Assembly (NCBI GenBank): GCA_021734685.1
Contig: JAIPIL010000001.1
Coordinates: 1 to 49,621, forward strand
From: Minisyncoccota bacterium
GTDB lineage: Bacteria > Patescibacteriota > Minisyncoccia > Minisyncoccales > PWPS01
DNA length: 49,621 bases
Direction of reading: 5' to 3'
Shown here: positions 385-48,915 of the stretch, piece after piece
Numbering within the stretch: position 1 is the first letter of the stretch
Layout: every line of letters begins with the position of its first letter
Translations under genes and position numbers: made by a program
Notes under the pieces: model-generated
Told to the model about the DNA's origin: nothing
The model's database searches: none
Seen by the model: the letters and a program-made list of their open reading frames with translations, nothing else

Positions 385-2073
385 ATGACAAACTCAAATA
401 ATACAAAAGAACAAACCAGAAAGTTTTTCATCTACGCCCGCAAATCTACTGATTCAGAAGATCGGCAAGTGCGAAGTATTGGCGACCAGATTTCTGAATT
501 GAAAGAATTGGCGAAAAAGGAAAATTTGGAAATTATTGATACTATCGTGGAAAAACAAACCGCCAAGAAACCTGGTCGCCCCTTGTTTGCCGAAATGTTG
601 AAAAAACTTGAAGCGGGCGAAGCTGTGGGAATTTTAGCTTGGCACCCCGATAGATTGGCAAGAAATAGCGTAGATGGCGGACAAATTATCTATCTTGTAG
701 ATACTGGCGTAATTCAAGAGCTAAAATTTCCAACTTTCTGGTTTGATCCTACTCCGCAAGGCAAATTTATGCTTTCAATCGCTTTCGGACAGTCAAAATA
801 TTATGTTGATAATCTTTCGGAGAATATCAAGCGAGGTCATCGGCAAAAATTGAAAAATGGCTTATGGCCTCAAATGGCTCCGCTTGGATATTTGAATAAT
901 AAAGAAACAAAACAGATTTATGTTGATAAAGAAAAATCGCCATTTATCGAAAAGGCATTTGAGGCATACGCCACTGGCAACTATACTTTAAAAAATCTCC
1001 GAAAGAAAATCAACGACTTGGGACTTGTCGGCAAGAAAGGCAAAATGCTTTCCGTTTCAAATTATCAATATCTTTTACAAAATCCATTTTACTATGGACT
1101 TATCCGCTATGGTGGTGAATTTTACGAAGGAAAGCATAAGCCGATTATTTCAAAGAAACTTTTTGACGAAGTGCAAGAAGTGATGAAAAGGAAATCTAAA
1201 CCGCAGAAAGTGAAAAAGATGAAATTTTTTCTTTATCGTGGATTTTTTAAGTGCGGTGAATGTGGATTTACAATCACAGCAGATAAGAAAATCAAGAAAA
1301 GCGGAAAAGAATATATTTACTACTACTGCACCAAGAAAAATCCACATCACCAATGCACGCAAAATGTTTTTACGAGAGAAGAAAAAATTTCATCTCAAAT
1401 TAGCGAGGAACTTCAAAAAGTTTCTTTGCCTGATGATTGCGCTGATTGGATGATCAAGGAATTGAAAAAAGAGAAAATCCAATCCAGCAAATCATCAGAC
1501 TTTTTTGTTCAAAAGACAGAAAAGGAACTTTCAAAACTTGATGAGAAGTTGGAAAAACTAATGAACGCATATTTGGAAAGTGTTTTGAATATTAGTGAAT
1601 ACCAAAAAGCAAAAAATTTTCTCATCAATCAAAAACAAGTTTTGAAAGACAAATTAAACGCTTTTGAACTAAAAAGTAATAATCGGTTCGAACTCGCCGA
1701 CAAGTTTATAAAAGACAGTAAACAAGCCAAAATTATCGCTTCCAAAGAAAATCCCGAAGGGATTCGGGATTTTCTAAAAAAGATTGGTTCGAACTTCCAA
1801 ATCCAAAACCAAAACATTTCTTTTTTGCCACGCGGAGCGTGGCAAATCGTTGCAAAATCAGCCCTTTCAGCCTCGCCCGCAGGCGAGGCGACCGCACCGC
1901 AGGTGCGTAAAACTTCCGAAAACTCTGAAATTGTAAATTGGCGGAGAGGGCGGGATTCGAACCCGCAAGTCCTTGCGGACGGCGGTTTTCAAAACCGCTG
2001 GAATAGCCGTTATCCGACCTCTCCTTTTGGGGTAAATATTCCCCATGTCCAACCCCGGGTTGGACATGGGTGA
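385..2073 (+). CDS. Large serine recombinase (resolvase/invertase catalytic domain + recombinase domain + zinc ribbon + coiled coil)
   Basis: N-terminal YARKST(D)...RQ...GDQ...RLARN motifs with the catalytic Ser, a Cys-rich CGECG...YYYC...HHQC zinc ribbon, and a long coiled-coil tail. The ORF has no stop until 2073, so the last ~95 codons are read from the right inverted repeat and antisense tRNA-Ser. The functional C-terminus is probably near 1790 or earlier. Confidence 0.85.
   Translation: MTNSNNTKEQTRKFFIYARKSTDSEDRQVRSIGDQISELKELAKKENLEIIDTIVEKQTAKKPGRPLFAEMLKKLEAGEAVGILAWHPDRLARNSVDGGQIIYLVDTGVIQELKFPTFWFDPTPQGKFMLSIAFGQSKYYVDNLSENIKRGHRQKLKNGLWPQMAPLGYLNNKETKQIYVDKEKSPFIEKAFEAYATGNYTLKNLRKKINDLGLVGKKGKMLSVSNYQYLLQNPFYYGLIRYGGEFYEGKHKPIISKKLFDEVQEVMKRKSKPQKVKKMKFFLYRGFFKCGECGFTITADKKIKKSGKEYIYYYCTKKNPHHQCTQNVFTREEKISSQISEELQKVSLPDDCADWMIKELKKEKIQSSKSSDFFVQKTEKELSKLDEKLEKLMNAYLESVLNISEYQKAKNFLINQKQVLKDKLNAFELKSNNRFELADKFIKDSKQAKIIASKENPEGIRDFLKKIGSNFQIQNQNISFLPRGAWQIVAKSALSASPAGEATAPQVRKTSENSEIVNWRRGRDSNPQVLADGGFQNRWNSRYPTSPFGVNIPHVQPRVGHG
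1790..1944. repeat. Right copy of 155-bp inverted repeat; its outer end overlaps the 3' end of tRNA-Ser(TGA)
   Basis: Reverse complement matches 128..282. The last 6 nt (ggcgg/tggcgg) coincide with the tRNA-Ser acceptor end. Confidence 0.85.
1939..2024 (-). tRNA. tRNA-Ser (anticodon TGA), CCA encoded
   Basis: Hand-folded cloverleaf: acceptor ggagagg/cctctcc, anticodon loop tTTGAaa, long variable arm, T-loop GGTTCGAATCC. Confidence 0.8.
2041..2070. repeat. REP-like perfect palindrome CCCATGTCCAACC-CCG-GGTTGGACATGGG (copy 1 of 4)
   Basis: Same palindrome at 25827..25855 (degenerate), 48854..48890 and 49591..49620. The last two flank a RAYT transposase gene. Confidence 0.8.
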
Positions 2074-4742: not shown

Positions 4743-4909
4743 AAGGAGGGGGAAGGAATGACACTCCGTCGTCATTGCGAGGGCTTTAGCCCGTGGCAAT
4801 CTCTCGTGGACTGCAAGAATGATGAGATTCTTCAGTCGCTTCGCTCCTTCAGAATGACGGGGAAGAAAGTCAAAGGTCAATTGTCAAAGGTTAACTATCA
4901 AAACAAACT

Positions 4910-11683: not shown

Positions 11684-11765
11684 AGGTTTGGTGCGCTGAT
11701 TATTGCTGATATCAACGCTGATTATTGCTAATTTATTTTTACTCTATTGTATTTTATCACTACTC

Positions 11766-11793
11766 TTGCAAAAATCAAGAAATTGTGTAAAAT
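11766..11793 (+). promoter_or_regulatory. Candidate promoter TTGCAA-16-TGTGTAAAAT (extended -10) 7 nt upstream of the S1 start codon, implying a leaderless or near-leaderless mRNA
   Basis: -35 TTGCAA at 11766..11771, TGn-extended -10 TAAAAT at 11788..11793, ATG at 11801. Confidence 0.4.
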
Positions 11794-11800
11794 ATATCCT

Positions 11801-12859
11801 ATGACTAAAGAATTATTAAAGGAAAAAAACTTACTTAACATTCCTAAGGAAGGAGAGATAGTTGAAGGCAAGGTTGTCGGAAAAGGACGATCTGCAGCTT
11901 TTCTTGATTTAGGAATATTCGGAACAGGAATTATATACGGACGCGAATTCCTTTCCGCAAAACATGAGTTAAAAGAAATGAAAGAAGGCGATATTGTTGT
12001 CGTAAAAATCATTTCTCTTGATTCTGACGAAGGATATGTAGAGTGTTCAAGAATTCAAGCTAAAAAAGAAATGGCTTGGGATATTCTTGAAAAACAAAAA
12101 GAAAATGAAGAGACAATCACTGTAAAGATAGAGGGAGCAAACAAAGGTGGTCTTCTTGCTAAAATATCAGGAATTCCTTCTTTTATTCCTTCTTCACAGT
12201 TATCTCCTGACAACTACCCTCGTGTAGAAGGAGGTGATTCAGGAAAAATACTGAAAGAGCTACAAAAGTTTGTAGGAAATAATATGGATGTTCAGATTCT
12301 TGATATATCAAAACAAAAAGAAAAAATTATTCTTTCCGAAAAAGCAAACAGCAACAGTGAAGTCAAAGAAAGCTCCTTTAAGTCATATAAAGAAGGAGAT
12401 GTTGTTGACGGAAAGATAACTGGAATTGTTGATTTTGGAGCATTTGTCCGTCTTGAAGATGGAATTGAAGGACTAATTCATATTTCTGAGATAGATTGGA
12501 GTTTAGTTCAAAATCCTAGTGATGTTCTAAAAGAAGGAGAATCAGTTAAAGCAAAAATAATAAAAATTGAAGATGGAAAGATCTTCCTCTCTTTGAAAGC
12601 TTTAAAGAAAGATCCTTGGAAAGAGATTGAAAAGAAACATAAAGAAGGCGATGTAATAAAAGGAACTGTTTCTAAATTCGTTGCTTTCGGAGTTTTCATA
12701 GAAATAGAAGGAGGAATTCAAGGACTCTGCCACATCTCTGAATTCAAAACAAAAGAAAAAGCAGAAGAAGCTTTAGAAGTAGGAAAAACCTACGACTTCA
12801 AAATCCTATCAATAAACGCAGCCGAAAGAAGACTCAGCTTGAGAGTTGTAGAAGAGTAA
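11801..12859 (+). CDS. Ribosomal protein S1-like protein (four S1 RNA-binding domains)
   Basis: Four repeats of the S1 pattern (G.VV.G.V......GAFV.L..G..GL.HISE). Confidence 0.75.
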   Translation: MTKELLKEKNLLNIPKEGEIVEGKVVGKGRSAAFLDLGIFGTGIIYGREFLSAKHELKEMKEGDIVVVKIISLDSDEGYVECSRIQAKKEMAWDILEKQKENEETITVKIEGANKGGLLAKISGIPSFIPSSQLSPDNYPRVEGGDSGKILKELQKFVGNNMDVQILDISKQKEKIILSEKANSNSEVKESSFKSYKEGDVVDGKITGIVDFGAFVRLEDGIEGLIHISEIDWSLVQNPSDVLKEGESVKAKIIKIEDGKIFLSLKALKKDPWKEIEKKHKEGDVIKGTVSKFVAFGVFIEIEGGIQGLCHISEFKTKEKAEEALEVGKTYDFKILSINAAERRLSLRVVEE

Positions 12860-13876: not shown

Positions 13877-13953
13877 TGGGGTGAGCGACGGGACTTGAAC
13901 CCGCAACCACTGCGACCACAACGCAGTGCTCTGCCAGTTGAGCTACGCCCACC
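13877..13953 (-). tRNA. tRNA-His (anticodon GTG) with genomically encoded G-1 and CCA
   Basis: Extra 5' G before acceptor gtgggcg, discriminator C, anticodon loop ttGTGgt. Confidence 0.8.
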
Positions 13954-13994
13954 ATGTTTGGATAAATTCTAATAACCAAAATTCAAAATTACAA

Positions 13995-14046
13995 ACTGGA
14001 TTCCCGCTGGAGTTTATCCTCGGCTACGATCGGGGGCGGGAATGAC
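13995..14046. repeat. Conserved intergenic hairpin element, long-loop variant (CTGGATTCCCGC-28 nt-GCGGGAATGACA)
   Basis: Same flanks and stem as the family, with an expanded loop. Confidence 0.7.
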
Positions 14047-14198
14047 AGAAAGAGTATGAATTTCCCGAGGTTCCCGAGGTCTCACCTCGGGAGTTTTCTC
14101 TCTAGATCGGATCTAGTAATTTTTGTTTTAAAATTCTTTCATTCTTTAATTTGAAATTTATTCGAAATTCAAAATTTAAAATTCAAAATTATCATATT

Positions 14199-17666: not shown

Positions 17667-17773
17667 CAAATTGACAGTTGACCTTTAACTTTTAACATTT
17701 AACTTGATTTCCGCTTCTGCGGAAATGATAAAAAGTAGTCAATAGTCAAATGTTAAATGTCAATTGTCATTAA

Positions 17774-23756: not shown

Positions 23757-23915
23757 AAATTTTCAATTTTCAATTTGACAATTTTCAATGAATGACCAAA
23801 TTTTTTAATGAATAAATTTTCAAAAATAATTTTACTTTATTTTATAAAAACTATAAGGTTTAGAAAATTAAGAAATTGAAAATTCATTGAAAATTGAAAA
23901 TTGCCAAATTGAAAA
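23757..23915. mobile_element. MITE-like element: ~40-bp terminal inverted repeats (AATTTTCAATTTTCAATTTGaCAATTTTCAATGAATGAC...) around a ~75-bp core
   Basis: Left arm 23757..23800 and right arm 23876..23915 are reverse complements. The same arms flank two other intergenic segments at 36642..36852 and 37488..37646. Confidence 0.5.
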
Positions 23916-23920
23916 CTATT

Positions 23921-24379
23921 TCACAACTTGTCAATTATATCACCATCACCTTGTATTATCAACCTTCTTCTTTTGTCGTCTTTGAACTCAAAGTGTATCT
24001 CGGCTGATTTTTCGGGAAGTGATTTTTTTATGTTTTCTCCCCACTCAACCACTACTATATTTTCTTCGTTGTTTATAATCTCTTGAAATCCTAATACTGA
24101 TAAATCTTTATCTTCTATCCGATAAGCATCAAAGTGATAGAGATATTTATTATTTTTTGTTTTGTATTTTTTAAAAACAAGAAAAGTAGGACTTGTTATG
24201 TTTTCTTCAACACCCACCCCTTCTGCAAATCCTTGTGTAAAAGTAGTTTTTCCTCCCCCCAGATCACCACTCAGAGATAAAAAAAACTTTTTTTGTTTTT
24301 CTATCACTTTTTTCCCCATCAAAAACCCTATCTTCTTCGTTTCTTCAGGAGAGTTTGTTACTACTTCTTTTTTAATCAT
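23921..24379 (-). CDS. tsaE: tRNA threonylcarbamoyladenosine biosynthesis protein TsaE
   Basis: P-loop LSGDLGGGKTTF and SPTF motif. Start is the ATG at 24379 (MIKKEV), because the longer track ORF runs through the terminator palindrome. Confidence 0.8.
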   Translation of the reverse strand: MIKKEVVTNSPEETKKIGFLMGKKVIEKQKKFFLSLSGDLGGGKTTFTQGFAEGVGVEENITSPTFLVFKKYKTKNNKYLYHFDAYRIEDKDLSVLGFQEIINNEENIVVVEWGENIKKSLPEKSAEIHFEFKDDKRRRLIIQGDGDIIDKL

Positions 24380-24426
24380 CTTCCCATTATACAAAATCCA
24401 ACCCACTAGTTCAAACCCCTTCTTTA

Positions 24427-24464
24427 AAAAAAATGGCACAGGTCGGACCTGTGCCATTTTTTTT
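24427..24464. repeat. Invariant palindrome A8-GGCACAGGTCGGACCTGTGCC-T8 (copy 3 of 3), here in a divergent-promoter region
   Basis: Identical core to 2277..2305 and 21417..21446. Confidence 0.6.
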
Positions 24465-28214: not shown

Positions 28215-28402
28215 AAAATTACAAATTCCAAATTACAAATTCCAAATAAATTACAAATTCAAATATCCAAAACTACAAACTGGATTCCCAGTCAAGCTGG
28301 GAATGACAAGAGGGGCAAGGATTATAAGTTGTTGTTTTGAATTTTGAATTTTGGTTATTGGTGCTTATTTAGAATTTGTAATTTGTAATTTGTAATTTAA
28401 AA
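28215..28402. repeat. Composite intergenic repeat: AAATTAC heptamer arrays in inverted orientation on both sides of a central hairpin element (28280..28308)
   Basis: Left aaattacaaattccaaattacaaattcc... and right gaatttgtaatttgtaatttgtaattt are reverse complements. The central hairpin is identical to 6180..6208. Confidence 0.75.
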
Positions 28403-34856: not shown

Positions 34857-36641
34857 TTAGAAGCCTGTTTTTGCTTGTTTTATTTTTTGAAGTTCTTCTG
34901 GGGAAGAAGTTATTATCTGATCTTCTGCGTAAGAAGCAGTTATTCTTATTACCACATGTTTTTGTCCGGCAAAAAATATTCCTTCCCCAACTTCTCCCTC
35001 TAAAAGAGTTGATTTTTCTTCTCCAGTTAAATTGAAAGTTTCTTGAACAGTGTCTATAACTGCGGGAGATTGTTTAAGAAGTATTTTTAAAGCAGAGTTG
35101 TTAACAATTGGTTTTCCGTAACTTGAAGACATAAAATCAGAAACATCTTGAGTTATTGTAGATACTCCTAGCCAGTATTTTCTTGCTCTTTTAACTAATC
35201 CAAAAAGGAAAGAGGCTCCATCTTCGTGCTTCATCATTACCCACGCCTCATCAACAATAAACAATCTTTTCTTCATAGAAGAGGTTATTGTTTTCCAGAT
35301 GTAACGAGAAACAATAAACATTGCAATCGGTCGCATCTCATCTTCAAGGTCTCTTATTCCAAAAACAGTTATATTGTTATCCATTGTAACATTTGTGTAC
35401 TGGTTAAAAAATTCAGAATATGTTCCTTGGGTAAATTTTCCTAAACGAAGAACAAGATTTCTTGTTCCTTCCATTGAGTCTAAAACTTGCTCTAAATCAG
35501 AGAAGATAGGAATGTTTTTTTCCCAAGTAGAAGGGTCACTTTCAGGAGTTATATCTTTGGCAGCGTATGTTTCAGTGATTGCTTGGTCTATAATAGAATC
35601 TTCTTCAGGAGTAAGTCCTCCTAACATAATGCGGAGAAGACCAACAAGCCCGATAGTGTTTCTTCTTATAACTTCTGCAGGAGTTTCTCCTTCTACGGGG
35701 ACAGGAATATCAAAAGGATTAATATGATTATCAGAGCCGAGAGAAATATTAAAGAAAGATCCCCCAGCTGCTTCAGCAAGTGTTTTGTATTCGTTGTCAG
35801 GATCAATAATAATGACATCTATTCCACTCATCAAAGAACGAAGAGCTTCTAGCTTGACTAGATAAGATTTTCCACCTCCAGAAACGCCGAAGATGACAGA
35901 GTTTGCATTTTCCAGTGAGAATCTATCAAAAATAACAAGAGAGCGATTGCTTGCATTTATTCCGTATAAGATTCCATCATTAGAAGTGAGATCAAAAGAA
36001 ACAAAAGGAAAAATACTAGAAAGAGGTTCGGTATTCATTGGGGTTTTTGTGTTTACAAGGTCTATCCCAAACGGACAACTACTTATAAATCCTCCTGATT
36101 GTTGAAAAAGGGTTGGTCGGATGTAAACAGAACTTGATTCAAGAATTGATCGTAGGGTGTTCTCAATGTCTTCAGTTTCTTTTTCTGAATCACCAAAAAC
36201 AGTTATATAAAGACCTAACTGAAACATCTTCTCTTCAGCCATCTGTAAGCGATCTCTAAGTTCTTCCATGTCACCGTGAGCAGTTTCCAAAATAGGATCT
36301 CTTATATTTCCTTTTTCTCTTTTCTCCATTATTTCTGCTTGAGTAGCAGTTATCTGTTTTCTTAATTTTTTCAAAACATCACCAGTGTTTGCTGGGGTTA
36401 TGAAAAAAGATATATCTAACTGAGTATTAAGGTTTATAATAGAAGAAAGCCAACCAGCGTTTAAATAACGAGGATAAGAAAAAACAAAAAAAGAACGAGA
36501 GTATCTTTCTCCAAGCTTCAGATGTCCTTGTTTTTCATCAATAGAAGAAGGAGCGATAATATCAACAATTCTTAAAACACCATCGTCCTCCTCTTTCTTC
36601 TTTTTCCCAATTAAATTTTTAAAATCATCTATAAAAGACAT
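34857..36641 (-). CDS. VirB4/TrsE-family type IV secretion ATPase (ATPase domain)
   Basis: Walker A IFGVSGGGKS, Walker B RLFIVDEAW, C-terminal motifs, and the overall AAA_10/DUF87-like pattern of conjugal-transfer VirB4 proteins. Confidence 0.75.
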   Translation of the reverse strand: MSFIDDFKNLIGKKKKEEDDGVLRIVDIIAPSSIDEKQGHLKLGERYSRSFFVFSYPRYLNAGWLSSIINLNTQLDISFFITPANTGDVLKKLRKQITATQAEIMEKREKGNIRDPILETAHGDMEELRDRLQMAEEKMFQLGLYITVFGDSEKETEDIENTLRSILESSSVYIRPTLFQQSGGFISSCPFGIDLVNTKTPMNTEPLSSIFPFVSFDLTSNDGILYGINASNRSLVIFDRFSLENANSVIFGVSGGGKSYLVKLEALRSLMSGIDVIIIDPDNEYKTLAEAAGGSFFNISLGSDNHINPFDIPVPVEGETPAEVIRRNTIGLVGLLRIMLGGLTPEEDSIIDQAITETYAAKDITPESDPSTWEKNIPIFSDLEQVLDSMEGTRNLVLRLGKFTQGTYSEFFNQYTNVTMDNNITVFGIRDLEDEMRPIAMFIVSRYIWKTITSSMKKRLFIVDEAWVMMKHEDGASFLFGLVKRARKYWLGVSTITQDVSDFMSSSYGKPIVNNSALKILLKQSPAVIDTVQETFNLTGEEKSTLLEGEVGEGIFFAGQKHVVIRITASYAEDQIITSSPEELQKIKQAKTGF

Positions 36642-36852
36642 ATAATATAATTTTCAATTTTCAATTTGGCAATTTTCAATGAATGACTAAATGAAAAAAG
36701 CACCAAATCACAAGCATCAAATTCCAAATAAATTCAAAATCCTAAATTCAAAATTCAAAACAATCATTGTCATTCCCGCGAATGCGGGAATCCAGTTTTG
36801 GAAATTAAAAAATTGAAAATTCATTGAAAATTGAAAATTGCCAAATTGAAAA
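36642..36852. mobile_element. MITE-like element (same 40-bp inverted arms as 23757..23915), enclosing one copy of the CTGGATTCCCGC hairpin; directly abuts the virB4-like start codon
   Basis: Left arm 36649..36691, right arm 36813..36852, internal hairpin 36768..36795. The 51 bp at 36642..36692 are nearly identical to 37488..37538. Confidence 0.5.
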
Positions 36853-36860
36853 TTCTTTTG

Positions 36861-37487
36861 TTATCTTGTTAATTCTTCTGGGAATTCTGGGTAGTATCCT
36901 TTTTCGGCGCTTTTTGAGTGGAAGACTGACCAGAACAGTTCAATTATTTCAACAGTTGTTAGTGGGGCAGAGTGAAGGCCGCATCTTCTTAGCCCTAAGG
37001 CAACAAATTCCATTCTTTGGTAAAGCTGTCTTTTCCCACGGAGAAAACTGTCTTCAGTTATATCTTCTTCATCTCCTTTCTTCTTTCTTGAAAACTCAAC
37101 TCCTGATGAGTTGTAAGGAACAACAACAAAAAATCGTTTAGAATAGATGGATTCTTTTTCTATAAAATCTTCTAAAAATTGCCGATATCCAGCGGTTTGT
37201 TGTTGAAGAAGTTGATTGGTTTGTTTTTTTTCAATTTCTTTTATCTTTTCAATATATCCTGTAATGTTTGTTTTTCTTGACTGAACGACGATCTGACATG
37301 TGAAGTCAAGGGAATTTAGAAACGATTGGAAACGATCTATTATTGCTTTTTGTTCATCAGGGGATTTAAGAGCGATATTAACAGAAGAAACCATAAGAAT
37401 TCCTCTTATTCCTCCAGCACTTAAAATAACAGTACCTTCACGGATCTGCTTAATAGGGATAAAGTCTTGAGTGCTTTTAGTGGACAT
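36861..37487 (-). CDS. Cytoplasmic protein, possibly the detached N-terminal domain of VirB4
   Basis: 208 aa with no TM, beginning MSTKSTQDFIPIKQIREGTVILSAGGIRGIL, which resembles the N-terminal segment of Gram-positive-type VirB4 proteins. It sits between PrgI/VirB3-like and VirB4-ATPase genes. Confidence 0.35.
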   Translation of the reverse strand: MSTKSTQDFIPIKQIREGTVILSAGGIRGILMVSSVNIALKSPDEQKAIIDRFQSFLNSLDFTCQIVVQSRKTNITGYIEKIKEIEKKQTNQLLQQQTAGYRQFLEDFIEKESIYSKRFFVVVPYNSSGVEFSRKKKGDEEDITEDSFLRGKRQLYQRMEFVALGLRRCGLHSAPLTTVEIIELFWSVFHSKSAEKGYYPEFPEELTR

Positions 37488-37646
37488 ATAATATAATTTT
37501 CAATTTTCAATTTGGCAATTTTCAATGAATGACCAAATTTCCAAATAATTTAATTTTCAAAGATAATTTCCTTTATTAATGTTTATAAAATTAGGAAATT
37601 AAGAAATTGAAAATTCATTGAAAATTGAAAATTGCCAAATTGAAAA
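37488..37646. mobile_element. MITE-like element (third copy), filling the intergenic space between the PrgI-like gene and the 208-aa gene
   Basis: Left arm 37495..37538, right arm 37607..37646, in inverted orientation. Confidence 0.5.
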
Positions 37647-37649
37647 TTT

Positions 37650-38057
37650 TTATGCTGTTTCTATGAACTTGTTTACATCGCTTAATCTTCCTTTTGTTGC
37701 TTTTTTCTTTTTTTGCTTTACTACTGGTTCTTCTTTTTTTCTTTTGCTTGGTTGGTTAACTTTTATAATATAGTCTTTCTTTTTCCAAAGGTATCTTTTA
37801 TAGGAAGTACTGAAAAAAATAACTTTCTTTATATAACTTGGTAGTGGTTCTCCGTTTTTTTGAAAAAAAGCAAAAGCAATACCGACTGCTCCAACTAAAA
37901 AAGCAAGAGTGTAAAAAATTGGGGATGTTCCTCCAAAAACAACAAATAAAAGCAAAATAACAAAAGCGGCAACAGCAAGATATCCGAGTTGAGAAAAAGA
38001 AGCTGGCCCTAATATCTTTGCTTCTCTTTCAATATAATGAGGAACTTTGTAGCGCAT
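37650..38057 (-). CDS. PrgI/VirB3-like small membrane protein
   Basis: MRYKVPHYIEREAKILGPASFSQLGYLAVAAFVI followed by a second TM. This matches the PrgI-family pattern (basic N-terminus, ..E.KI.GP.T.RQ..YL, two TMs). Start is the ATG at 38057, because the track start is a TTG. Confidence 0.55.
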   Translation of the reverse strand: MRYKVPHYIEREAKILGPASFSQLGYLAVAAFVILLLFVVFGGTSPIFYTLAFLVGAVGIAFAFFQKNGEPLPSYIKKVIFFSTSYKRYLWKKKDYIIKVNQPSKRKKEEPVVKQKKKKATKGRLSDVNKFIETA

Positions 38058-38061
38058 AAAG

Positions 38062-38192
38062 ATATAGAAACATTTGACATTTAACAATTGACATTTGACT
38101 GTTGATATATATTCTGGATTCCCGCGTTCGCGGGAATGACAGTGGTTTCAATGGTCAATAGTCAAATGTCAACTGTCAATTACTATTCTATC
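38062..38192. repeat. Composite intergenic repeat: GTCAA-type heptamer arrays in inverted orientation flanking the hairpin element 38114..38141
   Basis: Left catttgacatttaacaattgacatttgactgttga, right ggtcaatagtcaaatgtcaactgtcaatt. The hairpin is CTGGATTCCCGCGTTCGCGGGAATGACA. Confidence 0.7.
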
Positions 38193-38240
38193 ACAAAACA
38201 ATCCTTTGACAATATTTTTTTTTAAAGTTAAAATGAACTA

Positions 38241-40787
38241 ATGATTAAGGGCAAAAAACTAATATTACTTTTTGTTTTTTTTATCTGTTTTTTTGCAGTT
38301 GCTTTTACATATGGAACAGAAGTTGATTATCCAGAAATAATGGGAACAACAGTAGGGGAAGATTCTTCAGTTGGTGATTTTGTTCAGTATCTTTTTAAGC
38401 TTACTATATTATTATCGGTTGTTGCTGTTGCAGGAATAATTCTCTATGGTGGTTTTGTATATCTAACCTCTCCAATAAATCCAGAGAAAAGAAAAGATGC
38501 GCAAAGAAGAGTTTATAATGGATTTGCTGGTCTTTTTATAATTCTTTCCTTTGTTGTGGTCGTGAATGCAATTAATCCTGATCTGCTAGAAATAGACCTT
38601 CCTTCACTAGGAATTGAAACAGGAGAAGATCCAGAAGATGTTTATTTTGGTGAAGAGTTAAGTGGAGATCTAGTTGTGGAAGAAGTTCCGGTTGGAACAT
38701 ATATGGAAGAAGAACTTAGTCCGATTTCAACAAGAATAGATACAATAGAAACAATGGATGAGTTAAAAGAAATGATTGAAGAAGAGAGAACTTTTAATCC
38801 TACAGTAAAAGGAATATCTGGGCTTAATCATTATCTTTTAAGTATCTCTGACGAGTGTTCTTGTGACAATGCTACTTGTTACTGTGCTCCTTCTTGCCCA
38901 ACTGGGATGCCTGAATTAGGGTGCCAGTCGCTTTTTTGTTCAGGTGATGTTTGTGATAGTGGAGATGGAGAACCTCGGGAAACAATGGAAGAGATTGAAG
39001 AGATAAATAAAGAAATAACAGAAGATCTTCAAAACATAAAAAATCAATTAGCATCGTATAGAGATGATTTCAAGAAAAGATTAAATGTTTTTCAAGAACT
39101 TGAAAAAAGAAAAAATGATTGCGCAGTTCAAGGACCGATAACTGAAAACGAGAAGACAAAAATAGAATCTTATCTTGAAAAAAGAGAGATGGATATTACG
39201 GTTAAAACTCACAAAGAGATGGGGATTACAGGAAGTGTTCCAAATCCATTAGATGCACACTGTGTTGTTGGTGGGCGACTTGTTGATTCTGGTGATTTTC
39301 CAAGAGAAGACCCAGCTTTTTTTGATAGATTATGGGAATTGGATTATATGGAAAGAATTGTTTGTCCTTACGAGTACCAGATTGGTGAAATATTTGACAA
39401 AACAAGAGAGTTGGCAATTATTAAGGTTATAAAGTTAGAGATATTAGTTGAAAGAGTAGAAGAGTTGTTAGTAGAAATACAGAAAGTAAGTGAATATGTT
39501 TCTGACATAGGAGTTCACAACTGTGAGCCAGATTGTAGTTGTATTTATAATCCTTGTTATAAACTTTGCTACCTGCCTTGGTGTTCTGCATTTTGTTACT
39601 GTATGTGTCTTGACTGTGTGGGAGGATGTATTGAAGAAGCTTCTCCTTACGGAGGGTTAATAAAAAGTGGAGATAGAGGTAAGATATACGAATCAGTTGA
39701 AAAAATGGAAGAATTGGAAGAAGAAATTCTTTTGCTTATAAAAGAGATTAACAGCACTATTATAGAAATAGCCCTTCCTATAAATCAGAGAGTTGTAATT
39801 ATCACTGATGTAAATATTCAAGGAAGCTCTGATTCAGCAGTAGTAGGAGAAAGTTATCTTGTTACCGACATAGATACAGTAAGTGATCGCTTGAAAATAT
39901 ATGATGATATTGGACAGAAAGGAGAAGGGGAAAGAAAAGAAGAAGGGTGGATTTCATTTGGTTCTTTTGAATTTGAGAACGATGAGATAGAAAAGATAAA
40001 ACAAGCAGCTAGTGAATGTTACACTCCAGTAGAATTATCATCATCAGGTGAAGAAAATTGGATTACTTTGAATAGAGAGAAAGCAGTCGGTAATTATGGT
40101 CCATTAGATTATCACATACTGACAAATCCTCATCCAAGAAATCTTTTTTGTTGTTCATATTCTGAAAACACAAAAGAACAGTATAGTGTTCCTGATCGTT
40201 ACAGTCTTGATTACAATATAATTCCCGCAGAATCATTTGATCCTTTATTGGAGTGGAGTGATGATGATAACTGTATTGAAGGATATGATTGTGCTTCGGA
40301 AATATCTTTACCAAGTGAGGCTGACTATACACAATATGATGATGCTTCTTTTAAATTAAAACAACAAATTACTTGCATGAGAAATGAACTTGACACAATT
40401 CAGATGAAAGAAGAGATCGGGCTTGATGATGATGGGAACATAACTGATCCAATCGGAGATATTTCATATATAACCGACCATCGTCTTTACGAACCATACA
40501 ACTCTTGCTCTTTTATTTTTGGAGGTGATTGTAGTTTTGATCACACGATGGTTTACGGGCAGAAAAGAATATCGCCACACTACGGAGGAAGTAAGTGTTA
40601 TGAAACAAAACTTTCTTATGCTGTTTCTTTTAGTGATGTTGAAAATGCAGAATATATTATAAAAGCCTCAAAAGCTTGTAATGCATCAAGTTATGTGACA
40701 TACATTCCTGTTTCCGCAGAAGGAGAAACTTCTTCTAAGCATATTCAAGTTAGTATAGCGGGAGCTTATGGTTGTGGAGCAGATTAA
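38241..40787 (+). CDS. Large secreted cysteine-rich protein with N-terminal VirB2/TrbC pilin-like domain (putative pilus-associated adhesin)
   Basis: Signal peptide plus a TM-loop-TM domain (…ILYGGFVYLTSPINPEKRKDAQRRVYNGFAGLFIIL…INPDLLE) that aligns with the small paralogs at 6836..8029 and with 43676. It is followed by ~700 aa with dense Cys clusters (CSCDNATCYCAPSCPTGMPELGCQSLFCSGDVCDSG; CEPDCSCIYNPCYKLCYLPWCSAFCYCMCLDCVGGC). Confidence 0.5.
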   Translation: MIKGKKLILLFVFFICFFAVAFTYGTEVDYPEIMGTTVGEDSSVGDFVQYLFKLTILLSVVAVAGIILYGGFVYLTSPINPEKRKDAQRRVYNGFAGLFIILSFVVVVNAINPDLLEIDLPSLGIETGEDPEDVYFGEELSGDLVVEEVPVGTYMEEELSPISTRIDTIETMDELKEMIEEERTFNPTVKGISGLNHYLLSISDECSCDNATCYCAPSCPTGMPELGCQSLFCSGDVCDSGDGEPRETMEEIEEINKEITEDLQNIKNQLASYRDDFKKRLNVFQELEKRKNDCAVQGPITENEKTKIESYLEKREMDITVKTHKEMGITGSVPNPLDAHCVVGGRLVDSGDFPREDPAFFDRLWELDYMERIVCPYEYQIGEIFDKTRELAIIKVIKLEILVERVEELLVEIQKVSEYVSDIGVHNCEPDCSCIYNPCYKLCYLPWCSAFCYCMCLDCVGGCIEEASPYGGLIKSGDRGKIYESVEKMEELEEEILLLIKEINSTIIEIALPINQRVVIITDVNIQGSSDSAVVGESYLVTDIDTVSDRLKIYDDIGQKGEGERKEEGWISFGSFEFENDEIEKIKQAASECYTPVELSSSGEENWITLNREKAVGNYGPLDYHILTNPHPRNLFCCSYSENTKEQYSVPDRYSLDYNIIPAESFDPLLEWSDDDNCIEGYDCASEISLPSEADYTQYDDASFKLKQQITCMRNELDTIQMKEEIGLDDDGNITDPIGDISYITDHRLYEPYNSCSFIFGGDCSFDHTMVYGQKRISPHYGGSKCYETKLSYAVSFSDVENAEYIIKASKACNASSYVTYIPVSAEGETSSKHIQVSIAGAYGCGAD

Positions 40788-48853: not shown

Positions 48854-48890
48854 CCCCCCCCCATGTCCAACCCGGGGTTGGACATGGGGA
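48854..48890. repeat. REP palindrome upstream of RAYT (C9-ATGTCCAACCCGGGGTTGGACATGGGG)
   Basis: Perfect 15-bp arms. Same sequence as 2041..2070 and 49591..49620. Confidence 0.8.
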
Positions 48891-48915
48891 TATTTTTTTG
48901 ATATTATAATTTTAT

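What the first reader, a model, noticed from the sequence alone, without database searches (positions are those of the whole stretch)
36642..37646. virB4 appears split, and both pieces are preceded by the same 51-bp sequence abutting the ATG
The 208-aa protein (36861..37487) and the 594-aa ATPase (34857..36641) are separate genes. Each start codon is immediately preceded on the coding strand by a near-identical ...TTGCCAAATTGAAAATTGAAAATTATATTAT-ATG sequence (36642..36692 and 37488..37538, one mismatch). In both cases this 51-bp segment is the inner end of a MITE-like inverted-repeat element. Either the element inserted into an ancestral single virB4 and now supplies a promoter or start for the distal part, or it is a duplicated regulatory cassette. 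A TTGCCA-17-TATATT promoter-like hexamer pair ends 2 nt before each ATG, which would imply leaderless transcripts.
Basis: partly seen in the sequence, partly recalled or inferred. Interest (0 to 1): 0.6.

Follow-up and report, generated by a model that had tools for sequence, protein, structure and literature searches.

The report
Hairpin repeats between known split-virB4 genes
The two identical stretches in front of the virB4 pieces are copies of a small hairpin-forming repeat scattered through this tiny bacterium's genome. The repeat landed between genes that were already separate, so it did not split virB4, and the split itself is a published feature of these bacteria.

Summary
A 56-nt stretch with one mismatch runs into the ATG of both the 208-aa gene and the 594-aa ATPase, and each copy is the gene-proximal arm of an inverted-repeat element.

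The main interpretation fails. The 208-aa protein is a TrsD/"TraC-like" protein homologous to the N-terminus of VirB4. Thousands of stand-alone ~200-aa homologues exist. Relatives at 56-73% identity keep prgI, trsD and virB4 as separate genes with spacers of 21 nt or less in two loci and 7 and 68 nt in the third, and none has the element. This architecture was published for Patescibacteria in 2025.

The element is a dispersed ~150-nt palindromic repeat built from heptamer (TTGAAAA-type) arms. The window has three copies and a related genome has dozens. A 453-nt relative with the same ends encloses a 23S-rRNA-IVS-type four-helix-bundle (S23p) gene. The window copies keep its first seven codons, so they are ORF-less miniatures of an IVS-like cassette.

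They are most likely co-transcribed hairpins, possibly cut by RNase III. The TTGCCA-17-TATATT match ends too close to the ATG for a leaderless transcript.

One point is unexplained: genes next to these elements start with ATG-TCN far more often than other genes.

The parts
34857..36641 (-). VirB4-like T4SS ATPase, 594 aa. It lacks the first ~185 profile positions of a full-length VirB4.
   Evidence: Pfam P-loop_TraG 7.9e-25 and AAA_10. NCBIfam CD1110 VirB4 family: 363.7 bits against a cutoff of 325, profile 185-732 of 752. Walker A GVSGGGKS is visible in the sequence.
36642..36860 (-). Element E2. It fills the whole trsD-virB4 spacer (219 nt). It has heptamer-repeat arms and carries extra nested modules in its loop.
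   Evidence: RNA fold -61.4 kcal/mol, z -4.4, with a 25-bp basal stem. A near-identical 219-nt spacer (two substitutions) is present in the 99%-identical relatives L001 and L002.
36642..36692 (-).
36768..36795 (-). Nested GC-rich mini-hairpin module CTGGATTCCCGC-ATTC-GCGGGAATGACA inside the loop of E2. Related modules occur at 38110-38140 and 28280-28320, and in many MAG133 elements.
36861..37487 (-). trsD-like gene, 208 aa (Pfam PF26593 'TraC-like'), a homologue of the VirB4 N-terminus.
   Evidence: precomputed PF26593. NCBIfam VirB4_plasma 6e-13 and TrsD/TraD 2e-7. AF2 pLDDT 81.6. The top 13 Foldseek PDB hits are all R388 TrwK/VirB4 chains or entries.
37488..37649 (-). Element E3. It fills the whole prgI-trsD spacer (162 nt) and is the simple form of the repeat.
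   Evidence: RNA fold -44.4 kcal/mol, z -5.8. An orthologous copy is present in MAG133.
37488..37538 (-).
37529..37549 (+). Remnant of the S23p/IVP gene start (MTKFPNN) inside E3, antisense to the T4SS genes. It is identical to the first 7 codons of the 129-aa PF05635 ORF in the MAG133 L023 cassette.
37650..38057 (-). prgI / VirB3-like gene, 135 aa.
   Evidence: Pfam PrgI 2.7e-8. The ATG start at 38057 matches the 135-aa orthologues.
38081..38179 (-). Another heptamer-arm hairpin (TTGACAN repeats with a GGGAATCCAG module) in the prgI leader, ending 23 nt before the prgI ATG.
   Evidence: I12. RNA fold -42.2 kcal/mol, z -6.5.
38185..38212 (-). Best candidate operon promoter, TTGTCA-16-TG-TAGAAT, upstream of prgI.
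   Evidence: consensus match only
23758..23920 (-). Element E1, the third copy of the same repeat, between tsaE (23921-24457) and tRNA-Ala. It lacks the TATATTATATG tail.

Best explanation
The two near-identical segments are the gene-proximal arms of two copies (E3 and E2) of a dispersed palindromic repeat of about 150 nt. Its arms are tandem heptamers (TTTTCAA / TTGAAAA with one TTGCCAA unit).

The family derives from an IVS-like cassette in which the same ends enclose an S23p/IVP four-helix-bundle gene (PF05635). The window copies are ORF-less miniatures that keep only the first codons of that gene.

The copies were inserted, or copied from one another together with a few flanking bases, into the very short spacers of an ancestrally tight prgI-trsD-virB4 operon. 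That operon lies next to dnaA. The two-gene TrsD + VirB4 arrangement is ancestral in Patescibacteria and was not caused by the element.

The following steps are inferred, not shown. The operon is transcribed from the promoter upstream of prgI. The elements are co-transcribed and fold into long AU-rich hairpins whose base lies 14 nt before each AUG. As with rRNA IVSs and Correia elements, they are probably cut by RNase III, leaving cistrons with short leaders. This would be tolerated because the genome hardly uses Shine-Dalgarno sites. The -35/-10 resemblance is most likely a by-product of TTG-containing heptamers next to AT-rich DNA.
For: Repeat family: three copies in the window. There are at least 37 exact arm matches in 21 stretches of one related genome, MAG133 / GCA_034661095.1, and 13 full two-arm elements were catalogued.

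IVS-cassette origin: a 453-nt MAG133 element has the same ends around a 129-aa ORF that hits PF05635 at 4.6e-17. It shares about 27 nt at the left end and about 75 nt at the right end with the miniatures, including the ATG and 7 codons. In L001 a second PF05635 cassette with different heptamer arms sits in the very spacer that E3 occupies here. The Coxiella IVS has the same architecture: 428 nt, a 28-bp terminal stem, tandem heptamers before the S23p ATG, and RNase III cleavage in mid-stem (PMC4990558).

The split predates the element.

Tight ancestral spacers: 3/21, 4/overlap and 7/68 nt.

Hairpins: z -4.4, -5.8 and -6.5.

SD-poor genome: about 4 of 37 ORFs have an SD-like motif.

Orientation: 9 of 10 independent full elements have the same arm 5' in the sense of the flanking genes or tRNAs.

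Turnover: the same spacers hold different elements in related genomes.
Against: No transcript data exist, so co-transcription and RNase III cleavage are inferred by analogy only.

Comparing fold stability of the sense and antisense strands gave mixed results: 8 elements favour the sense strand, 2 tie and 2 favour the antisense strand.

No target-site duplication or clean empty site was found, so transposition is not demonstrated. The only ORF-bearing relative encodes S23p, which is not a known transposase.

The identity between E2 and E3 runs past the arm through ATATTAT-ATG-TC. Element-adjacent genes begin ATG-TCN in 8/12 cases against 11/154 for other genes. Simple insertion into a spacer does not explain this.
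Confidence: 0.75

Rival explanations
1. Portable outward-facing promoter, as in Correia elements. The arm supplies a -35 (TTGCCA) and the junction supplies a -10 (TATATT), so trsD and virB4 each get their own, possibly leaderless, transcript.
For: There is a 10/12 consensus match at both genes. Every arm contains TTG heptamers, and both outward ends often lie 3-12 nt from an ATG. The genome does show leaderless-type promoters, with the -10 ending 6-7 nt before the ATG at 11801, 38241 and 48916. Correia elements are known to create promoters at their ends (PMC2649163).
Against: The -10 match ends 2 nt before the ATG, so a normal start site would fall about 4-6 nt inside the ORF, and no alternative in-frame start is nearby. 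E1 and many MAG133 copies have no -10-like hexamer at that position. The arm-to-ATG distance varies from 3 to 12 nt, so the geometry is not conserved. The same arm equally often faces a stop codon or a tRNA 3' end. The scan finds 21 promoter-like sites in 3.9 kb against 12.3 expected, so such matches are cheap in this AT-rich DNA.
Confidence: 0.15
2. The outermost inverted repeat of the element includes the start codon (ACATA...TATGT). The element would then have supplied or overwritten the ATG and second codon of trsD and virB4, and the TAA of prgI.
For: The E2/E3 identity extends through ATATTAT-ATG-TC. ATG-TCN occurs at 8/12 element-adjacent starts against 11/154 elsewhere, p = 2.4e-6. An ATG lies within 16 nt of 22/49 outward arm ends, against 3-9/49 for permuted trinucleotides. 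Five left-end copies read TTTATG(T/C)TG where no gene starts, being antisense to stop regions or next to tRNA 3' ends. Element-free orthologues have other second codons. In MAG133 the left flank CATAAAA of the prgI-trsD copy recurs after the trsD stop.
Against: The spacer between the arm and the ATG varies in length and sequence. E1 and many other copies lack CATA/TATG ends. At the MAG133 ruvB/LTD-gene spacer, an inserted arm is followed by ACTAGTCT-ATG-CTA while the empty site in the window reads ATG-TTA, so no ATGTC was brought in. Protein lengths are unchanged compared with element-free relatives. TrsD codon 2 could have changed by a single substitution, GCC to TCC.
Confidence: 0.2
3. The element inserted into a single ancestral virB4 and created the two genes.
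For: The two proteins are colinear, complementary parts of a VirB4, and an element lies exactly between them.
Against: The same split, at the same residue (...GYYPEFPEELT-stop), exists without any element in relatives at 56-73% identity. It also exists across thousands of homologues and in staphylococcal pGO1-type systems as TrsD (PMC12102498).
Confidence: 0.01
4. A dedicated operator or protein-binding cassette, duplicated to co-regulate trsD and virB4 (T4SS-specific regulation).
For: Two nearly identical copies flank trsD. Tandem heptamers look like iterated binding sites. A pentameric S23p-type protein is a conceivable ligand (inference only).
Against: The same repeat lies next to tsaE/tRNA-Ala in the window. 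In MAG133 it lies beside tRNA-Arg/His and beside genes whose first residues resemble ribosomal protein L6 and triose-phosphate isomerase; those two identities were judged by eye only. In close relatives the T4SS spacers hold other element types or a lone arm.
Confidence: 0.05

Closest known systems
TrsD + VirB4 + PrgI/VirB3 module of the patescibacterial (MPF-FATA-like) type IV secretion system (PMC12102498)
   Same: The gene order is prgI, then a trsD-like ~200-aa gene, then virB4. The TrsD homologue is related to the VirB4 N-terminus. The module sits next to dnaA/dnaN near the replication origin, and pilin-like genes lie alongside.
   Different: Nothing essential differs in the genes. This lineage additionally carries hairpin repeats in every spacer of the module.
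23S rRNA intervening sequences carrying an S23p ORF (Coxiella, Leptospira; PMC4990558)
   Same: The ORF-bearing relative is 453 nt, against 428 nt in Coxiella. Terminal inverted repeats form a stem of about 25-28 bp. Tandem heptamer repeats abut the start of a PF05635 ORF. Reductive, ORF-less forms exist.
   Different: None of the sampled copies lies in rRNA; they sit between protein genes and next to tRNAs. There are dozens of copies per genome rather than one per rrl gene. RNase III excision is untested here.
Correia repeat-enclosed elements / NEMIS of Neisseria (PMC2649163) and bacterial MITEs in general (PMC2229807, PMC10969869)
   Same: They are short, non-coding, inverted-repeat elements that are highly iterated, intergenic and often co-transcribed. 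They have promoter-like ends and hairpins that are RNase III substrates.
   Different: The sequence is unrelated. The arms are made of tandem heptamers. No TA or other target duplication was seen. The only coding relative carries S23p rather than a transposase. The promoter geometry at these genes is wrong for productive transcripts.
REPIN / BIME doublets mobilised by RAYT transposases
   Same: They are extragenic palindromic doublets that form hairpins, occur in many copies, and turn over quickly between related genomes.
   Different: No RAYT (IS200/IS605-type) gene flanked by the arms was seen in the DNA sampled. The arms are longer (~40 nt) and heptamer-periodic.

Membership tests
VirB4 T4SS ATPase (NCBIfam NF045971 CD1110 family / TIGR00929) | C-terminal P-loop ATPase domain with Walker A, scoring above the curated cutoff | tested here: met
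   594-aa protein: NF045971 363.7 bits against a cutoff of 325. Pfam P-loop_TraG 7.9e-25. GVSGGGKS is present.
VirB4 T4SS ATPase (NCBIfam NF045971 CD1110 family / TIGR00929) | A single polypeptide that includes the extreme N-terminal ~185 profile positions | tested here: not met
   The 594-aa protein covers profile 185-732 of 752. Positions 2-118 are carried by the separate 208-aa protein.
TrsD / TraC-like (PF26593; NCBIfam NF041427) | Stand-alone ~200-aa protein homologous to the VirB4 N-terminus | tested here: met
   Precomputed PF26593 hit on the protein and on all 120 listed homologues, which are 176-215 aa. VirB4_plasma profile 101-236, E 6e-13. The top 13 Foldseek hits are TrwK/VirB4, prob 0.94-1.0.
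TrsD / TraC-like (PF26593; NCBIfam NF041427) | Score above the curated NCBIfam TrsD cutoff (200 bits) | tested here: not met
   31.1 bits, E 2e-7. It is a distant relative of the staphylococcal subfamily. The local Pfam copy lacks PF26593.
TrsD / TraC-like (PF26593; NCBIfam NF041427) | Encoded between prgI/VirB3 and virB4 | tested here: met
   Seen in the window and in loci L001-L007 and L030-L032. The literature describes the same arrangement.
MITE (miniature inverted-repeat transposable element) | Short, non-coding, with terminal inverted repeats | tested here: met
   Elements of 150-220 nt with arms of about 40 nt and a 25-bp perfect core.
MITE (miniature inverted-repeat transposable element) | Many dispersed copies, with presence/absence differences between related genomes | tested here: met
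   for copy number. The E1 site and other spacers differ between the window and MAG133.
MITE (miniature inverted-repeat transposable element) | Target-site duplication flanking each copy | tested here: inconclusive
   No direct repeat is recognisable in the AT-rich flanks, and no clean filled/empty pair was available.
MITE (miniature inverted-repeat transposable element) | A parent element with the same ends that encodes a transposase | tested here: not met
   The only ORF-bearing relative found encodes a PF05635 four-helix-bundle protein. Only about 220 kb of the two genomes was available.
rRNA intervening sequence (IVS) with S23p ORF | Terminal inverted repeats forming a long stem, with heptamer repeats next to the S23p start | tested here: met
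   compared with PMC4990558.
rRNA intervening sequence (IVS) with S23p ORF | S23p (PF05635) ORF inside the element | tested here: not met
   The window copies keep only 3-7 codons. The ORF is present in MAG133 L023 and in the L001 prgI-trsD spacer.
rRNA intervening sequence (IVS) with S23p ORF | Located in a 23S rRNA helix | tested here: not met
   All sampled copies lie between protein or tRNA genes, and Rfam finds no rRNA near them.
rRNA intervening sequence (IVS) with S23p ORF | Excised from the transcript by RNase III | not testable with these tools
   This needs RNA data or an in vitro assay.
Correia / CREE-type promoter-bearing MITE | A functional promoter formed by the element end plus the flank | tested here: inconclusive
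   The consensus match is 10/12, but the -10 ends 2 nt before the ATG and is absent at E1 and many other copies.
REPIN / RAYT system | A RAYT gene flanked by the repeat | not tested
   No whole genome was available, and none was seen in the ORFs examined.

The most novel reading that the evidence does not exclude
S23p/IVP four-helix-bundle cassettes bounded by heptamer-repeat inverted arms are a self-propagating element class in Patescibacteria, and the S23p pentamer possibly recognises the heptamers. Their ORF-less miniatures spread into intercistronic and tRNA spacers and carry stop- and start-proximal ends (ACATAA...TATATGT). They would act as RNase III 'punctuation', cutting polycistronic transcripts into short-leader mRNAs in a genome that scarcely uses Shine-Dalgarno sites. 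That would give the long-mysterious S23p/IVS family a role outside rRNA.
Probability: 0.15. Interest if true: 0.7.

Novelty: new variant of a known kind. Interest (0 to 1): 0.35.

Why it matters
The headline idea, that a mobile element split virB4, is wrong. The split is the published TrsD+VirB4 architecture, so that part is ordinary.

Three things remain of some value. First, the locus gives a clear example of palindromic repeats colonising every spacer of an essential, origin-proximal operon in an ultra-small genome without disrupting it. Second, there is sequence-level evidence linking ORF-less intergenic hairpin repeats to S23p/IVS-type cassettes. The origin and mobility of those cassettes have been debated since the 1990s (PMC4990558). 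Third, there is a strong, unexplained association between these elements and ATG-TCN gene starts.

If RNA data confirmed processing at these hairpins, it would bear on how SD-poor CPR bacteria express operons.

Tried and rejected
- A profile search of the 208-aa family against PDB sequences gave no meaningful hit. The structural search was needed instead.
- Rfam at a permissive threshold over 36400-38300 gave only chance sub-threshold hits. A gathering-threshold scan of 19 MAG133 loci found only tRNAs, so no copy is in rRNA.
- The metagenome scan for the arm core returned only 5 stretches. Three have similar heptamer hairpins in other organisms and two are chance matches. It added little.
- tblastn with E. 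coli RNase III (sequence recalled from memory) against all held DNA gave no hits. This is uninformative because only part of each genome was held.
- Sense versus antisense fold energies, as a test for RNA-level selection, gave mixed results. G-U versus A-C asymmetry in the arms offered too few independent events to use.
- A search for target-site duplications and clean empty sites failed, because the spacers are mosaics of several repeat modules.
- Literature searches for MITEs or leaderless translation in CPR/Patescibacteria, and for PF05635 cassettes outside rRNA, found nothing relevant.
- An intrinsic-terminator role was rejected. The stems are AU-rich with no U-tract, and the scan found no terminator at the elements.
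- A DnaA-box or origin-related role was considered because dnaA is adjacent. It was rejected by eye only (no DnaA-box scan was run), because the heptamers do not resemble TTATCCACA, and because copies lie 10 kb away and throughout MAG133.
Full report
**Observation**

Read on the minus strand, 36637-36692 and 37483-37538 are identical at 55 of 56 positions. The match includes ATATTAT, the ATG and the next two bases (TC) of both the 594-aa gene (34857-36641) and the 208-aa gene (36861-37487). Both 24-25-nt cores have a chance expectation of 0.00 in shuffles; the 24-nt core gives three hits in the window and the 25-nt core six.

Each segment is one arm of an inverted repeat that fills its intergenic space: E2 at 36642-36860 and E3 at 37488-37649, each with a perfect 25-bp stem. 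TTGCCA-17-TATATT is a 10/12 promoter-consensus match ending 2 nt before each ATG. The description is therefore accurate. E1 shares both arms but not the TATATTATATG tail.

**The genes**

The window is chromosomal DNA of a Patescibacteria ("Candidatus Pacebacteria") MAG. It carries housekeeping genes: gyrA, rpsA-like, ftsH, infB, ruvB/C, a PBP, dnaN, dnaA and yidC.

The 594-aa protein is a VirB4-type ATPase. It scores 363.7 bits on NF045971 against a cutoff of 325, but covers only profile positions 185-732 of 752. The 208-aa protein aligns to positions 2-118 of the same profile, to 101-236 of VirB4_plasma (E 6e-13), and to the stand-alone TrsD/TraD family (E 2e-7). Its AlphaFold model (pLDDT 81.6) has TrwK/VirB4 chains of plasmid R388 as its 13 best PDB matches (prob 0.94-1.0, TMq 0.44-0.53). 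Upstream lies a PrgI/VirB3-like gene. So virB4 is split in the evolutionary sense.

**The split is old and already known**

The 208-aa protein has 3592 database homologues. The best 120 are 176-215 aa and all carry PF26593 "TraC-like". An exhaustive search of 50%-identity representatives gives 1973 clusters, and none of the best 150 is an ~800-aa fusion.

Loci from relatives at 73%, 60% and 56% identity (L030-L032) have the same prgI, ~200-aa, ~600-aa order. The first protein ends at the same place (...GY[YF]PEFP.EL..-stop). Their spacers are only 3/21, 4/overlap and 7/68 nt, and none contains the element.

A 2025 paper describes exactly this module in Patescibacteria. It reports TrsD as the most abundant T4SS component, remotely homologous to the VirB4 N-terminus, mostly adjacent to VirB4 and PrgI, and often near the origin of replication (PMC12102498).

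**What the repeat is**

The arms are tandem heptamers: AATTTTCAA-TTTGGCAA-TTTTCAA-TTTTCAA on one side and its near-complement on the other.

The 23-nt core occurs at least 37 times in 21 stretches of a single species-representative genome, MAG133 / GCA_034661095.1. TrsD of MAG133 is 87% identical to the window's. I catalogued 13 full two-arm elements of 143-432 nt plus many solo arms. The larger ones contain nested GC-rich modules, as E2 does.

One 453-nt MAG133 element (L023) has the same ends around a 129-aa ORF, which is a PF05635 "23S rRNA intervening sequence protein" (E 4.6e-17). It shares about 27 nt at one end and about 75 nt at the other with the ORF-less copies, including the ORF's ATG and first seven codons. 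E3 still reads MTKFPNN at 37529-37549 on the plus strand. The window elements are therefore miniature derivatives of an S23p cassette.

The architecture matches the Coxiella 23S rRNA IVS: about 430-450 nt, a stem of about 25-28 bp, tandem heptamers abutting the S23p start, and ORF decay. In Coxiella, RNase III excises the element by cutting in mid-stem (PMC4990558). None of the copies sampled here is in rRNA.

**History of this locus**

- MAG133 has the element in both T4SS spacers.
- The 99%-identical relative (L001/L002) has a near-identical E2 (two substitutions). In place of E3 it has a different-armed cassette carrying an intact PF05635 gene.
- The 89% relatives (L004-6) have a solo arm in one spacer and a TTCAAAA-heptamer variant in the other.
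- Elsewhere, the same spacers hold different repeat families in the window and in MAG133.
- The prgI leader itself contains a third heptamer-arm hairpin at 38081-38179.

Short spacers in this lineage are thus repeatedly colonised and overwritten. The near-identity of E2 and E3 reflects membership of one repeat family. They were probably copied from one another together with a few flanking bases: in MAG133 the left flank CATAAAA recurs at both sites.

**How it probably works**

The steps above are shown by the data. The steps in this section are inferred.

The best promoter candidate for the operon is TTGTCA-16-TG-TAGAAT at 38212-38185. E3 and E2 would be co-transcribed and fold into strong hairpins: -44.4 and -61.4 kcal/mol, z -5.8 and -4.4, with the stem base 14 nt before each AUG. 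By analogy with IVSs and Correia elements (PMC4990558; PMC2649163), RNase III cleavage is the most likely fate.

Only about 4 of 37 ORFs in the window have an SD-like motif. Replacing the upstream context of a cistron should therefore be tolerated.

Nine of ten independent full elements share the same orientation relative to flanking genes or tRNAs. This hints at RNA-level or transcription-linked constraint. Strand-specific folding energies are mixed.

**Why the promoter reading is doubtful**

- A -10 ending 2 nt before the ATG would start transcription inside the ORF.
- Promoter matches with leaderless geometry in this window end 6-7 nt before the ATG, at 11801, 38241 and 48916.
- E1 and many MAG133 copies lack any -10 at that place, and the arm-to-ATG distance varies from 3 to 12 nt.
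- Identical arms also face stop codons and tRNA 3' ends.
- TTG-containing heptamers next to AT-rich DNA produce such matches easily: 21 were found against 12.3 expected in 3.9 kb.

**Unexplained**

Genes whose ATG lies within 14 nt of an outward arm end begin ATG-TCN in 8 of 12 cases, against 11 of 154 for other genes (p = 2.4e-6). Element-free orthologues of trsD and virB4 have other second codons.

An ATG lies within 16 nt of 22 of 49 outward arm ends, against 3-9 of 49 for permuted trinucleotides. Five of these are not gene starts. The element may therefore have an outer inverted repeat, ACATA...TATGT, that contains the start codon. There are counter-examples. I rate this at about 0.2.

**Comparison and novelty**

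The gene arrangement is already known. The repeat behaves like a MITE, REPIN or Correia-type element and has the anatomy of an S23p IVS. It fails defining features of each:

- no target duplication was seen;
- no transposase-bearing parent was found;
- it is not in rRNA.

I found no description of S23p-cassette-derived miniatures in intergenic spacers in the searchable literature. I therefore class it as a new variant of a known kind, of modest interest.

**Limits**

No RNA data were available. Only about 220 kb of the two genomes was held. ORF calls outside the annotated loci are heuristic. E-values from the structural search are weak; the consistency of the hits, rather than their score, carries the inference.

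Noticed in passing
window 28216-28398; 38081-38179; 17679-17769; 13953-14198; about 4865-4909: Other families of heptamer-repeat inverted arms (AATTTGT, TTGACAN / AATGTCA, TTTTGAA, AAAGTCA units) fill other spacers. They often end a few nt before an ATG (ruvC, prgI, tsaD) or lie between tRNAs.
   Followed up: partly
window 11760-11800, 38206-38240, 48880-48915: Good sigma-70-like -10 boxes (TAAAAT, TAAAAT, TATAAT; the first two with -35 TTGCAA or TTGACA) end 6-7 nt before the ATG of the S1-domain gene, the 848-aa pilin-like gene and a 222-aa gene. This is leaderless-mRNA geometry. Only about 4 of 37 ORFs have an SD-like motif.
   Followed up: partly
L001:3545-4000 (JGI 3300035249, 99% relative): The spacer that holds E3 in the window holds here an intact 124-aa PF05635 (S23p/IVP) gene flanked by different heptamer arms (AAAATCA/AAAGTCA ... 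TTTTGAC/TTTTGCC). The trsD ATG again lies 11 nt after the arm.
   Followed up: yes
window + MAG133 loci L008-L029: Genes directly downstream of an E-type arm start with ATG-TCN (Met-Ser) in 8/12 cases against 11/154 otherwise. 11 of the 12 have T at position +4.
   Followed up: partly
window 36768-36795, 38110-38140, 28285-28315; L009, L010, L012, L014, L021, L028: Short GC-rich palindromic modules recur: CTGGATTCCC...GGGAATGACA and TGTCATTCTGAACGAAGCGAAG...GAAGAATC...TCAGAATGACA. They are nested inside or beside the heptamer elements, which makes the spacers mosaics.
   Followed up: no
window 36642-37649: E3 and E2 are direct repeats of about 150-220 nt flanking trsD. Homologous recombination between them could delete or amplify trsD. 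TrsD is reported essential in a Saccharibacterium (PMC12102498).
   Followed up: no
window 385-2073 (+), tRNA-Ser 1939-2164, tRNA-Arg 2371-2445: A 562-aa large serine recombinase (Resolvase + Recombinase + Zn ribbon) sits at the window edge and overlaps or abuts tRNA-Ser genes. It may mark the boundary of an integrated element.
   Followed up: no
L033:1330-1500 (metagenome contig Ga0172366_10093910, GC 42%): A similar TTGAAAA-heptamer hairpin from a different, higher-GC organism lies just after a CVTGDTLLP-like (intein-type) motif, in what looks like continuous coding sequence. The frame was not checked.
   Followed up: no
L025:6790-7346 (MAG133): Two identical element copies each follow a tRNA-Arg gene, in a tRNA-Arg / element / tRNA-His / tRNA-Arg / element array. 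The orthologous spacer in the window (13953-14198) holds a degenerate TTTTGAA-type element instead.
   Followed up: partly
L027:2087-2578 (MAG133): There is a tandem duplication of an element plus the first bases of the downstream 644-aa gene, next to a run of N. It may be an assembly artefact caused by the repeat.
   Followed up: no
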